Below, one piece after another: positions 38,754 through 41,700 of a stretch of 64,000 nt of DNA. Below the pieces are notes generated by a model. It worked only from the letters and a program-made list of their open reading frames with translations. It was not told the origin of the DNA and searched no databases. Positions within the stretch are counted from its first letter, which is position 1, and every line of letters begins with the position of its first letter. Made by a program: the position numbers and the translations under genes. The stretch is from positions 4,162-68,161 of the forward strand of contig CALXZJ010000004.1 in the NCBI GenBank assembly GCA_944393235.1, written 5' to 3'. Origin of the DNA: an uncultured Alphaproteobacteria bacterium (GTDB taxonomy: Bacteria > Pseudomonadota > Alphaproteobacteria > RF32 > CAG-239).

Positions 38754-41700
38754 TTACCGGTCGACTGATTTATCAGACGATGGCATGATTTTACCTTTAG
38801 AATTGCTTTGTTTTGAAGTTTTCTGGTTGTTTGCAGATGTTTTTTCTTTAGGTTCATTTGCATTAAGTCCCATCACTTCATTGTAAGGTTCGCCTTGATG
38901 TTCATCATAAAAGACATTATCGCCCTGCAGTTTATCCAATCTCCAGGTTGAAGGATCATTAGGATCCGGAGCTTGTTGCCGGGTATCATCAGCAGTTTCC
39001 TTATCTTTAAGTTTTTTCCGAACGCTTTCAACAATGTCAAGAATATTTTTGTTGCCGTCAACCGTATGTTCTTGCTTGCCCTCAAAATCAATCTTAGGAT
39101 TGTTTTTGTTGCCTTTGTCGGTATCAAATTCATTCGGTTTCTTACCTTCAAAATCAATCTTAGGATTGTTTTTGTTGCCTTTGTCGGTATCAAATTCATT
39201 CGGTTTCTTACCTTCAAAATCAATCTTAGGATTGTTTTTGTTGCCTTTACCCTTGTCAAAATTATTTTTGTCCTTGGTTTCATTTGCATCAAGCCCCATA
39301 ACTTCATTATAAGGCTCGCCTTGATGTTTGTCATAAAAGACATTATCACCCTGCAGCAAATCTAATCGCCATGTTGACGGATCATCAGGATCCGGATGTT
39401 GTCTTTGATTGCCGGGACCTTTAGGAGGCTCGGCTGGTCTGCCCCGGCCAGGATTACCGGGTTCTTTCCCTGGTTTAGGAGGTTCTTTGGGATCCGGTTT
39501 GGGAGATGGAGAATACCACCAACCACGGCTACCAGGTTCTTTCCCCTTTTTAGGAGGATTGACTGGCTTAATACCCTCTTTAGGATTAGCGGACTCTCTA
39601 GGCGGTTCGCCTGGGGAATACCAGCCAGGATTACCGGGTTCTTTCCCTTGTTTAGGCGGTTCGACAGGATTGACGCCAATGCCCGGATTAATACCCTTTC
39701 TGGGATTAGCGGGATCTTTAGGCGGTTTGCCTGGGTGAAACCAGCCGATGTTACCGCGACCTTTGCCAGGGTCTTTGATATTGCCCTCTTTAGGATTGTC
39801 AGGGTCTTTGACGATTTTTCCGGGTTCTTTTTTCCTGTTTAAAACCCTGTCCATGAAAGCACCAACTCTTTGTTTCAATCTCTTGACCGCTTTAAAAGGA
39901 TGCTCTAAAACGCCGACCATGCCGACACCCAAATCCGTTTTATTGCGAACCATGTCAAAATCTTCTTTTTGAGAAGTCGACGTTGTTTCAACTTCTTTAG
40001 TGGGGAAATGTGTCTTGTCATGATCATAAGTTGAGTGTCTTTCCGGATAAAGAACATCATTTACCGGACGATTATCTATGGTGCTGACAAAGTTATTCAA
40101 CCCGACATGCGATTTTAAACTCTCATAAGCTTGTATAGCCTCAGGGTTGACGGAACCGTCACTGTTAAAAAGCATTTTCATATCTTGAATGCTGTCATAA
40201 GGGATATTATGCTGCTGAGCAAAACCTTCGCCGAATACGGTATGATAACCGTTGCTGGTTCCGCCGTCATACATGGGCATATTATCCGGCGCCCGCATTC
40301 CGGCGTCATGAGCAGTCAGAAGTGTATGATAAGGATTTTCCACACCGCCTGCTTGCAAAGCTTCAATCCGGGAATTCAAAAGGTCCGGATTATCTTTATA
40401 CCAGTTGTTTTGCAAAAACTCTTTGGCATTTTGGTCAAGAACCCCATAATCAATAACCGTTTCTGTTGTTGTCGTGGTTTCAGGATGAGAGCCGGTGTGT
40501 TCCTTGTGCTGGAAAAGAGTGTTATCGGGATTGTACTGATTGTAGGCATCAATAGCCACATTAGCAGCATAACGCCCCATCAATGCAGCCAGCCCGGTTA
40601 TTGAAGCGCGTCCGATTGCCCATACGGCAGCCTCTGCTTTGCTCATTCCGCCCTTAACATTACTGTTATAGCTCAAAATAGCGCCACCGCCGCCGCCGAC
40701 AATCAAAGAACCGGAGCCCAGAGCCATGGCAACGCCCGGATTTCCTGTTGCGGCAAAGCCCAGAGCCGTAGCGCCCAATACCGTTGTCGTAACAGAAGTC
40801 ATCAACTGCGGGTTTTGAACCATTGCTTTTAGGCCGCAGGGAAGCCCTTCTTTTTTACGTTGTTTGCGCCATTTCCAGATGGCTCTTGCCGTCATGGTAA
40901 CGCCCAATGTCACACCAAGCGCGGCACCGGCTAATTTATTAAGCCCGCCGGTGGCTGCCGTTAAAGTAGCATCTGATGCGGCAATTGTGCCGAGCGTCGT
41001 GATGGCACCGGAAACCAAAAAGGCGGATAATCCGTATTTTCCCAAACTTTTAAGTTCATTAATCCGTCGCTCGCGTAAATTTATCTTGCCGTCAACCACA
41101 CGGTCAGCTGCACGCTTGTCCAGTTTTTTCAACGGTTCAAACAAGCGTACCGGTATCGAACTGTCCTGACCGAGTTTTTTGCTCAAACGGTGTGCGTAAG
41201 CACCGGTACTGTTAATACAGCTATCAATACCGGCTCTATACCCGCGCGGGCTAATGCTCATCGGATGTTCAACATCTGCCAGATTTCTTACAAAATCTTT
41301 GAGATATTTTTCATTCGTAAATTCATCCGGGTGCTCTAAGCCGTTTTTAACGACCCGGTCACTGACATGAAGAGAAAACAATGTTGCCGGAACTTCTTCA
41401 TTAAGCTCACTTTGTAAATATTCCGGTGTCATTTGCGTATCAGAACCGAGTTCGCGCATTAAAACATTTTGTTTTGCGACCATAATAACATTATCAAGTT
41501 TGCTCTCGGGGATAACCTTTGCACCTTGGCTCCACGTATCTGACAATGTTCCGTCGGCTAATTCAAATTGAGGTTCAGCTTGTCCTTGTTCATTAGTAAA
41601 CTTGAAATTGGAAATCAGCTGCAATGTTTCATCGCTTATCTGAACAGACGGCAGAAGTTCATTTAACCTCTCAAAACGTTGTTCGGCATTTTGGCGTAAG

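What the first reader, a model, noticed from the sequence alone, without database searches (positions are those of the whole stretch)
38845..39425. Perfect 66-bp x3 tandem array nested inside a 125-bp direct repeat within the giant gene
Three consecutive 66-bp units (22 codons, KGNKNNPKIDFEGKKPNEFDTD) are essentially identical at DNA level. This implies very recent expansion or ongoing concerted evolution. They are flanked by a diverged direct repeat of about 125 bp encoding PDPxDPSTWRLDxLQGDNVFYDxHQGEPYNEVMGL. The structure is poised for in-frame length variation by unequal recombination.
Basis: seen in the sequence. Interest (0 to 1): 0.5.

Follow-up and report, generated by a model that had tools for sequence, protein, structure and literature searches.

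The report
Recently homogenised coding repeat in protein tail
The repeat is real: a 22-codon in-frame tandem repeat, recently homogenised, in the probably floppy tail of an uncharacterised membrane protein from uncultured Alphaproteobacteria. This is an ordinary kind of variable coding repeat, here documented across strains.

Summary
The gene (window 38754-42707, minus strand) encodes 1317 aa, so it is large, not giant. The 66-bp array has two units identical at 66/66 nt. A third unit matches for only about 42 nt (TRF: 2.6 copies, 98%). The flanking direct repeat is 137 nt at 84% identity, 426 bp apart, and encodes a 35-aa motif.

Comparison with 10 related metagenome or MAG contigs and 22 members of two 90%-identity clusters shows three things:
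- Three units is the usual state. Unit 1 and unit 2 differ at 9, 6, 2 or 0 positions depending on the strain, so this strain's array was homogenised by gene conversion or unequal exchange rather than expanded.
- A near-clonal contig (3 mismatches in 9.9 kb) has exactly one unit fewer.
- Most tail length variation comes from 25-, 34- and 55-aa units in the neighbouring Pro-rich part. A 353-nt tail block is 98.9% identical between lineages whose gene cores are 78% identical.

The tail is predicted disordered. The 35-aa motif is under purifying selection (10 synonymous against 4 non-synonymous codon changes between copies).

The protein belongs to a family with no Pfam match, 214 clusters at 50% identity; every member that carries a source name is from an Alphaproteobacteria MAG. 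Its function is unknown.

Verdict: a real coding minisatellite, a new member of a known kind, of modest interest.

The parts
38754..42707 (-). Host gene, 1317 aa. It has a conserved core (about residues 140-960) and a variable C-terminal tail (about 961-1317).
   Evidence: ORF list and translation. Family alignment A1 shows conservation in the core only. No Pfam, NCBIfam or PDB sequence match.
39117..39248 (-). Two 66-bp units identical at 66/66 nt (unit 1 at 39183-39248, unit 2 at 39117-39182). Each encodes KGNKNNPKIDFEGKKPNEFDTD.
   Evidence: Identical in L015 and L016. One of the two units is absent in L005.
39051..39116 (-). Third, partial unit (KGNKNNPKIDFEGKQEHTVDGN). Only 2 differences from unit 2 in the first 42 nt, then divergent.
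   Evidence: Identical to unit 3 of relative L004.
39249..39290 (-). Leader between motif copy 1 and the array (DANETKDKNNFDKG). It contains a degenerate partial copy of the unit (KNNFDKG).
38997..39056 (-). Linker GNKNILDIVESVRKKLKDKE, the likely ancestral copy from which the 22-aa unit arose. Its core (tail residues 262-280, LDIVESVRKKLKDKETADD) is the only long helix predicted in the tail. Its first six bases overlap the divergent end of unit 3.
   Evidence: the repeat finder family D4: 36-nt copies 72% identical to 39032-39067. The array-free relative has DKANKNIPDIVESVRGKLK at this position. AF2 helix at tail residues 262-280.
39266..39402 (-). Flanking direct repeat, upstream copy in the gene. 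It encodes the 35-aa motif, copy 1 (PDPDDPSTWRLDLLQGDNVFYDKHQGEPYNEVMGL, residues 1105-1139).
38840..38976 (-). Flanking direct repeat, downstream copy. It encodes motif copy 2 (PDPNDPSTWRLDKLQGDNVFYDEHQGEPYNEVMGL, residues 1247-1281). 84% identical to copy 1 at the DNA level.
   Evidence: The copies differ at 10 synonymous and 4 non-synonymous codons.
39396..39827 (-). Pro/Gly/Lys-rich repeats with GW(Y/F)xPGxPP elements. This is the main source of tail length alleles (25-, 34- and 55-aa units).
   Evidence: Repeat families D1 and D5. 165-bp tandem duplication in L004. Alleles P0158, P0166, P0164, P0159 and P0001.
39286..39638 (-). Mosaic block: 98.9% identical (4 mismatches in 353 nt) to lineage L001, whose gene core is only 78% identical.
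   Evidence: blastn of the two genes.
40548..41036 (-). Gly/Ala/Thr-rich hydrophobic segments, residues about 558-720. Probably two membrane hairpins plus a weak fifth segment.
   Evidence: Hydropathy scan, invariant columns in A1, long helices in the AF2 model. Topology is inferred, not shown.
38704..38749 (.). Terminator-like hairpin lying between the gene's stop codon and the convergent DUF378 gene, so it could serve both.
   Evidence: Gene layout in L004 and L005.

Best explanation
The feature is a coding minisatellite (an in-frame variable tandem repeat) in the probably disordered C-terminal tail of a large membrane protein of unknown function.

Shown:
- The 22-codon unit arose by serial duplication of the start of a short linker (GNKN-I/N-L/P-D/K-I...) that lies between two copies of a conserved 35-aa motif.
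- Three units is the common state in this species-level lineage.
- In this strain, unit 2 and the first part of unit 3 were recently overwritten by the sequence one unit upstream, leaving a 101-nt exact repeat.
- The tail as a whole evolves by gain and loss of repeat units, and by exchange of blocks between lineages.

Inferred:
- The overwriting happened by gene conversion, or by unequal exchange or slippage with a one-unit offset.
- The 101-nt exact repeat now favours loss or gain of whole units, and one near-clonal contig has one unit fewer.
- The 35-aa motif is the functional element, probably a short binding peptide that folds on contact.
- The 22-aa units and the Pro-rich repeats are flexible spacers. 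Their number sets the distance between the two motif copies: 31-33 aa without the array, 85 aa with two units, 107 aa with three. Selection tolerates this variation and does not demand it.
For: - Repeat anatomy.
- Reading frame: kept through to the same stop codon in all full-length alleles.
- Origin of the unit: 72% DNA similarity between the unit and the downstream linker (family D4). The array-free relative has DKANKNIPDIVESVRGKLK at that place.
- Homogenisation: differences between unit 1 and unit 2 are 9, 6, 2 and 0 across strains. Window unit 2 differs from relative unit 1 at 3 nt and from relative unit 2 at 10 nt, while window unit 3 equals relative unit 3. Against L004 the array carries 15 mismatches in 198 nt, against 38 in the first 3081 nt of the gene and none in the last 363 nt.
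- Not an assembly artefact: two other assemblies, whose contig names point to two assembly pipelines, carry the identical array. Eight contigs carry a three-unit allele whose units are distinguishable.
- Copy-number change: L005 differs from the window by 3 mismatches in 9.9 kb plus an exact 66-bp deletion.
- Tail length alleles and mosaicism.
- Disorder: P, K, G, N, D and E make up 67% of the tail. AF2 mean pLDDT is 43.7, with one long helix.
- Constraint on the motif: 27 of 37 columns are invariant over the aligned motif copies (A6, 7 sequences), while third codon positions vary in the 7 DNA copies. The two window copies differ at 10 synonymous and 4 non-synonymous codons. In the array, window against L004 gives 4 synonymous and 7 non-synonymous changes.
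Against: - Nearly all loci used are short-read metagenome or MAG contigs; no read depth or long reads could be examined.
- The two-unit allele rests on one contig and could be a collapse of identical units.
- Unit number is otherwise constant at three, so the array is not demonstrably hypervariable.
- The function of the motif and the spacer role of the units are inference only. No homologue of the motif was found outside this lineage.
- AF2 on an alignment of three sequences is weak evidence for disorder.
- Codon counts are too small for a formal dN/dS test.
Confidence: 0.75

Rival explanations
1. Assembly artefact: the two identical units, or the unit number, result from mis-assembly of short reads. 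On this view the window is expanded, or the window is correct and L005 is collapsed.
For: The exact repeat is 101 nt, long enough to form a loop in a de Bruijn graph at common k values. L005 is otherwise nearly identical to the window, which is what a collapse would look like. Tandem repeats are a known source of assembly error (PMC6868369).
Against: The three-unit array with two identical units is reproduced in L015 and L016, from other samples. Their contig names point to two different assembly pipelines. L015 carries the same contig-name prefix (ONAT22-1) as L005, and it resolved the identical units. Alleles with distinguishable units also have three units.
Confidence: 0.07
2. Adaptive contingency region: the tail is exposed on the cell surface, and its repeats vary under diversifying selection from host immunity or phages, as in repeat-bearing surface antigens.
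For: There are many tail length alleles within clusters of at least 90% identity, and a tail block has been exchanged between lineages. Non-synonymous changes outnumber synonymous ones in the array, 7 to 4. The source names seen on labelled family members and MAG contigs are all Alphaproteobacteria or proteobacterium MAGs.
Against: There is no signal peptide and no surface-anchoring or secretion motif (by inspection of the sequence; no Pfam or NCBIfam hit). With four hydrophobic segments the tail would be cytoplasmic. The unit length is a multiple of three, so there is no on/off switch. Unit number is three in 8 of 9 full-length alleles. The numbers are too small to show positive selection.
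Confidence: 0.13
3. Neutral by-product: the 22-aa units have no role at all. They are slippage products tolerated in a disordered linker and will decay or be lost.
For: The sister lineage (L001, P0002) lacks the array altogether yet keeps the motif copies. The tail is predicted disordered. Codon changes in the array show no sign of constraint.
Against: The core of the unit (NKNNPKI-D/N-FEGKKPNEFD) is kept in all alleles, and three units persist across strains with up to 41 mismatches in the first 2800 nt of the gene. This differs from the best explanation only in degree.
Confidence: 0.3

Closest known systems
Intragenic variable-number tandem repeats of bacteria, such as the polymorphic intragenic repeats surveyed in Legionella pneumophila (PMC2639597) and reviewed in PMC3899988
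   Same: Head-to-tail units whose length is a multiple of three. Near-identical copies. Unit number and unit sequence differ between strains. The accepted mechanism is slippage or unequal recombination.
   Different: Here the unit number is almost fixed at three. The clearest signal is homogenisation of unit sequence, not change in number. All data come from metagenome assemblies, not isolates.
Tandem-repeat proteins of the Anaplasmataceae, also Alphaproteobacteria: Anaplasma marginale MSP1a (28-29-aa repeats) and Ehrlichia TRP32/47/120 (from my own knowledge)
   Same: Alphaproteobacterial proteins with charged, disordered tandem repeats of 20-80 aa that vary between strains.
   Different: Those are surface or secreted effector proteins with serine- and acid-rich repeats and documented host binding. 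No sequence similarity was found here, and neither secretion nor exposure is shown. Not a member.
Identical-repeat surface proteins of Gram-positive cocci, such as the group B Streptococcus alpha C protein with identical 246-bp repeats and S. aureus protein A region X (from my own knowledge)
   Same: Repeat units identical at the DNA level, maintained by concerted evolution. Whole units are deleted in frame.
   Different: Those have a signal peptide and an LPXTG wall anchor, many units, and demonstrated immune escape through repeat loss. None of these features is present or tested here.
Pro-rich flexible tethers of membrane-anchored proteins, such as TonB, ZipA and the FtsK linker (from my own knowledge)
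   Same: A membrane-anchored protein followed by a Pro/Lys/Gly-rich, low-complexity, length-variable segment that acts as a spacer.
   Different: No homology. The only hit was NCBIfam TonB at E 0.06, to the Pro-rich part of relative P0007. The terminal element here is a repeated 35-aa peptide, not a folded domain.

Membership tests
Coding minisatellite / intragenic VNTR | Head-to-tail tandem copies of a unit of 10 bp or more | tested here: met
   TRF period 66, 2.6 copies, 98% matches. Units at 39183-39248, 39117-39182 and 39051-39116.
Coding minisatellite / intragenic VNTR | Unit length a multiple of three, lying inside a real reading frame that is kept in all alleles | tested here: met
   66 nt is 22 codons. 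The ORF has 9 homologues in the first search and 214 family clusters. Every full-length cluster-1 allele ends with the same ...DKSVDR.
Coding minisatellite / intragenic VNTR | Copy number differs between strains | tested here: inconclusive
   Two units in L005/P0165, three in the 8 other full-length cluster-1 alleles, and none in the sister lineage. The two-unit allele comes from one short-read contig, so collapse is not excluded.
Concerted evolution by gene conversion or unequal exchange | Paralogous units within one genome are more alike than positional orthologues between genomes | tested here: met
   Window units 1 and 2 differ at 0 nt. Window unit 2 differs from relative unit 2 at 10 nt and from relative unit 1 at 3 nt. 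The graded series across strains is 9, 6, 2, 0.
Phase-variable contingency locus | A repeat whose length change shifts the frame or alters a promoter, switching expression on and off | tested here: not met
   The unit is 22 codons, so every unit change keeps the frame.
Repeat-bearing surface or secreted antigen (MSP1a, TRP or alpha C type) | Export signal or anchor (signal peptide, LPXTG, autotransporter or T1SS signal) and surface exposure | tested here: not met
   The N-terminus MAKYEFGPSTLELDEFKEF... is hydrophilic. No Pfam or NCBIfam domain of any kind. Actual exposure cannot be tested with these tools.
Polymorphic toxin with exchangeable C-terminal domain | Conserved N-terminal part, variable C-terminal toxin domain, and a cognate immunity gene immediately downstream | tested here: not met
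   Tails do vary across the family, from 44 to 708 aa. However, the downstream gene is a convergent, conserved DUF378 gene. No toxin domain was found, and the tail is predicted disordered.

The most novel reading that the evidence does not exclude
The tail may be a new kind of exchangeable 'variable tail'. On this reading, a lineage-specific 35-aa peptide (DPSTWRLDxLQGDNVFYD...YNEVxGL) is a new binding module. It is displayed in two or three copies on a flexible tether of adjustable length. The host protein belongs to an uncharacterised membrane-protein family so far seen only in uncultured Alphaproteobacteria MAGs. Tail cassettes would be swapped between co-resident species, as suggested by the 98.9%-identical block between gene cores that are 78% identical. 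Spacing would be tuned by the 22-aa units in response to a host or phage partner.
Probability: 0.12. Interest if true: 0.55.

Novelty: new member of a known kind. Interest (0 to 1): 0.25.

Why it matters
As a repeat it is ordinary. In-frame minisatellites in disordered protein tails are common, and their behaviour is well understood.

Its value is as a clean, small, population-level example of concerted evolution caught in steps: unit 1 and unit 2 differ at 9, 6, 2 or 0 positions depending on the strain. A probable one-unit contraction is seen in a near-clone. The example comes from uncultured Alphaproteobacteria for which almost nothing is known.

The locus could serve as a strain marker in metagenomes. 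It also flags a family with no Pfam match (214 clusters at 50% identity) whose tail is a hotspot of repeat turnover and of exchange between lineages. It warns that this gene's length in short-read assemblies should not be trusted without spanning reads.

Tried and rejected
- Plasmid search with the gene: no match.
- Pfam, NCBIfam and PDB sequence searches with the protein, the family profile, the tail and the motif profile: nothing significant.
- Homologue search with the 227-aa tail alone: no hit, not even the 94%-identical P0001. The result is therefore uninformative, probably because of low-complexity handling.
- Scan of JGI metagenome contigs with the motif profile: 600 pattern matches, none confirmed.
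- The afdb50 library was not available.
- Third homologue search, with a diverse alignment: returned only two of its own members.
- Idea that the 35-aa motif derives from the conserved end of the ancestral tail domain (…LNP…DLNxYLVEGKPL): hhalign probability 0.8%, rejected.
- Idea of a polymorphic-toxin-like system: no immunity-like neighbour and no toxin domain.
- Idea of an operon partner: the neighbourhood differs between lineages. The gene sits by aroA, tRNA-Gly and DUF378 here, and between dnaJ and dnaK in L012.
- Deletion between the two 137-nt flanking repeats, which would give a cluster-1 allele of about 1175 aa: not observed.
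Full report
**1. What is in the sequence**

The finding lies at the 3' end of an ORF on the minus strand, window 38754-42707, 1317 aa with an ATG start. The gene is followed by a terminator-like hairpin (38704-38749) that it may share with a convergent DUF378 gene. A divergent tRNA-Gly(GCC) lies upstream at 42976-43050.

Tandem Repeats Finder reports 39075-39248, period 66, 2.6 copies, 98% matches and score 334, the highest of the 52 rows for the window. The repeat finder gives three 66-nt copies, plus a 137-nt direct repeat (38840-38976 and 39266-39402) at 84% identity with 426 bp between starts.

In the codon register of the protein, the units are as follows:
- Unit 1 (39183-39248) and unit 2 (39117-39182) are identical at 66 of 66 nt. 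Both encode KGNKNNPKIDFEGKKPNEFDTD.
- Unit 3 (39051-39116) has 2 differences from unit 2 in its first 42 nt, then diverges.

The longest exact direct repeat in the window is 101 nt. Ten shuffles gave 14-17 nt. 'Perfect x3' should read 'two perfect units plus a partial third', the flanking repeat is 137 nt rather than 125, and the gene is large rather than giant.

**2. Where the unit came from**

The linker that follows the array, GNKNILDIVESVRKKLKDKE (38997-39056), is 72% identical at the DNA level to the corresponding part of the unit (family D4). The sister lineage has no array. At that position it has DKANKNIPDIVESVRGKLK between its motif copies. The 22-aa unit is therefore a serially duplicated copy of the start of this linker.

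**3. Comparison with relatives**

The first homologue search found only nine relatives, none carrying a Pfam domain or a functional name; the only source names were 'hypothetical protein' from a Pseudomonadota MAG and an unclassified bacterium MAG. The two closest are cluster representatives P0001 (94%) and P0002 (64%). I retrieved DNA for ten related contigs of these two lineages (L001, L004-L011, L015, L016) and the 22 members of the two 90% clusters.

(a) Unit number. All cluster-1 alleles with distinguishable units have three units.

(b) Unit sequence. Unit 1 and unit 2 differ as follows:

| Locus | Differences between unit 1 and unit 2 (of 66 nt) |
|---|---|
| L004 | 9 |
| L006 | 6 |
| L007-L011 | 2 |
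| window, L015, L016 | 0 |

The window's unit 2 differs at 10 nt from its positional counterpart in L004 but at only 3 nt from L004's unit 1. Unit 3 is identical in the two strains. This is the classical signature of concerted evolution. In this strain's lineage, unit 2 and the start of unit 3 were overwritten by the sequence one unit upstream. A contraction followed by re-duplication would give the same result.

(c) Mismatch distribution. Against L004, the first 3081 nt of the gene carry 38 mismatches (1.2%), gene positions 3223-3591 carry 30 (8%), and the last 363 nt carry none. The pattern is patchy and suggests recombination.

(d) Not an artefact. The array with two identical units is present, base for base, in L015 and L016. 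These come from other samples, and their contig names point to two assembly pipelines. Their strain differs from the window by 11 mismatches in the first 2800 nt of the gene and a 75-bp deletion elsewhere in the tail.

(e) One unit fewer. L005 differs from the window by 3 mismatches in 9.9 kb plus an exact deletion of one 66-bp unit. This is either a genuine contraction in a near-clone or a collapse of identical units during assembly. L015, whose contig name carries the same ONAT22-1 prefix as L005, resolved the identical units, which favours a genuine change. I could not examine reads.

**4. The tail as a whole**

The protein lengths in each cluster are:

| Cluster | Protein lengths (aa) |
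|---|---|
| 1 | 1317 (three different sequences, one of them on eight contigs), 1313, 1309, 1300, 1295, 1292, 1266 |
| 2 | 1243, 1218, 1138, 1125 |

In cluster 1, apart from the 22-aa unit in P0165 and a 4-aa difference in the core between the 1313- and 1309-aa alleles, the differences lie in the Pro/Gly/Lys-rich part (window 39396-39827):
- a 25-aa unit present or absent (P0158 against the window; P0002 against L001);
- a 34-aa duplication (P0166, P0164);
- a 55-aa (165-bp) tandem duplication (L004);
- replacement of the first Pro-rich block by the L001 type (P0159).

Window gene positions 3070-3422 (window 39286-39638) are 98.9% identical to L001, with 4 mismatches in 353 nt. The cores of the same two genes are 78% identical. 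This block has therefore moved between lineages recently. Because these window-type Pro-rich blocks, which the 353-nt stretch spans, recur in the tails of many independent contigs, a single chimeric assembly does not explain it.

**5. Properties of the tail and of the motif**

P, K, G, N, D and E make up 67% of tail residues 961-1317, and only 17% are hydrophobic. AF2, run on a shallow alignment of three sequences, gives a mean pLDDT of 43.7. Apart from two 3-4-residue helical turns, the only helix is at LDIVESVRKKLKDKETADD (tail residues 262-280). This is consistent with disorder but is weak evidence on its own.

The 35-aa motif is strongly conserved. In the alignment of motif copies (A6, 7 sequences) 27 of 37 columns are invariant, while third codon positions vary across the 7 DNA copies from three loci. 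The two window copies differ at 10 synonymous and 4 non-synonymous codons. This indicates purifying selection on the peptide and an old duplication. In the array, the window against L004 shows 4 synonymous and 7 non-synonymous codon changes. The numbers are small and only suggestive.

The motif occurs only in these two clusters among 155 family representatives. It was not found in JGI metagenomes or in PDB sequences. It is not detectably related to the conserved end of the tail domain of other family members.

**6. The host protein**

- A profile of the family finds 214 clusters at 50% identity among 1.84 billion proteins. Of these, 150 have E below 1e-30, and most are 1000-1500 aa long.
- Thirty diverse members have no Pfam family in common (one member has a single marginal hit).
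- All members that carry a name are 'hypothetical protein' from Alphaproteobacteria, Pseudomonadota or unclassified bacterium MAGs.
- The core consists of a helical N-terminal part of about 550 residues without a signal peptide, then four to five Gly/Ala/Thr-rich hydrophobic segments with strongly basic flanks (residues 558-720), then a conserved region of about 230 residues, and a basic amphipathic helix (…KRLKxRVGAFMDR…).
- Across the family, tails range from 44 to 708 aa. The commonest type is an unrelated domain of about 230 aa that begins EYKIVYGxEP. The window's lineage has the motif repeats instead.
- The gene neighbourhood is not conserved across the family.
- Function is unknown. Whether the tail faces the cytoplasm (four membrane segments) or the periplasm (five) cannot be decided here.

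**7. Explanation**

Shown: an in-frame 22-codon minisatellite, recently homogenised, sits in a tail that evolves by gain and loss of repeat units and by exchange of blocks between lineages.

Inferred: the mechanism is slippage or unequal recombination with a one-unit offset. The 101-nt exact repeat now makes loss or gain of a unit likely. The motif copies are the constrained functional elements. The 22-aa units and the Pro-rich repeats are flexible spacers that set the distance between the motifs: 31-33 aa without the array, 85 aa with two units, 107 aa with three.

Rivals:
- An assembly artefact is unlikely for the window and possible for L005.
- A surface contingency region is not supported. 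There is no export signal, no frame switch, and the unit number is nearly constant.
- A purely neutral by-product differs from the main reading only in degree.

**8. Comparison with what is known, and novelty**

The feature meets the defining properties of an intragenic VNTR and of concerted evolution. Similar intragenic repeats have been surveyed in Legionella (PMC2639597). The caveat on assembly is as discussed in PMC6868369.

It resembles the repeat proteins of the Anaplasmataceae and the identical-repeat surface proteins of Gram-positive cocci only in the behaviour of its repeats. The defining export and anchor features were looked for and not found, so it is not a member of those groups.

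It is a new member of a known kind. Interest is modest. The most useful by-products are a candidate strain marker, a stepwise series showing homogenisation, and a pointer to an uncharacterised protein family with a recombining tail.

Noticed in passing
window 45100-45130: Perfect (AC) dinucleotide run of 15.5 copies in an intergenic region, about 85 bp upstream of the glycosyltransferase ORF at 45215-46357, with a hairpin in between. Its length differs between strains: 15 copies in L005, 17 in L008 and L015. This is a possible phase-variable or regulatory microsatellite.
   Followed up: partly
window 39286-39638 (gene nt 3070-3422) vs L001 8917-9269: A 353-nt tail block is 98.9% identical between two lineages whose gene cores are 78% identical and whose flanking genes are about 83% identical. 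This indicates recent recombination between lineages inside the tail.
   Followed up: partly
window 37515-38180, 59070-59693 and 29511-30179 (all minus strand): Three dispersed paralogous genes of about 210-220 aa share a nearly identical prepilin-like N-terminus (GRSMVEMLGVLAIxGVLSVGAIAGYSKAM), with about 200 nt of 84-89% DNA identity at their 5' ends. NCBIfam gives weak hits to pseudopilin and prepilin N-terminal models.
   Followed up: partly
window 33822-33978: 63-bp tandem repeat, 2.5 copies at 80% identity, inside the 722-aa ORF 32062-34230 (minus strand). That ORF has a weak MarP/trypsin-like protease match.
   Followed up: no
window 14623-14742: Repeat of period 36, 18 or 6 bp (GGTTCT-type, possibly Gly/Ser-rich if read in the ORF frame; not translated here) inside the span of ORF 14409-17198 (minus strand).
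   Followed up: no
window 56391-56462: 24-bp repeat, 3 copies (GAACATCACCATGAACATGAACAC, a His/Glu-rich stretch), inside ORF 56067-57434 (plus strand).
   Followed up: no
window 59811-59875: Perfect 34-bp direct repeat, 1.9 copies, in the intergenic region just upstream of the pilin-like gene 59070-59693.
   Followed up: no
cluster-1 members P0161 (677 aa) and P0164 (623 aa), both listed with a longest contig of 25,057 nt: In one assembly the gene appears to be called as two ORFs; both fragments are listed with the same longest-contig length, so they probably lie on one contig. The first fragment, P0161, ends at the GGGGGAI stretch. This could be a frameshift, a pseudogene or a sequencing error at the Gly run.
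   Followed up: no
L012 8001-11723 (distant family member P0006): In this MAG the family gene sits between dnaJ and dnaK, an unusual place for an insertion. In L014 it again lies next to a convergent DUF378 gene, as in the window.
   Followed up: no
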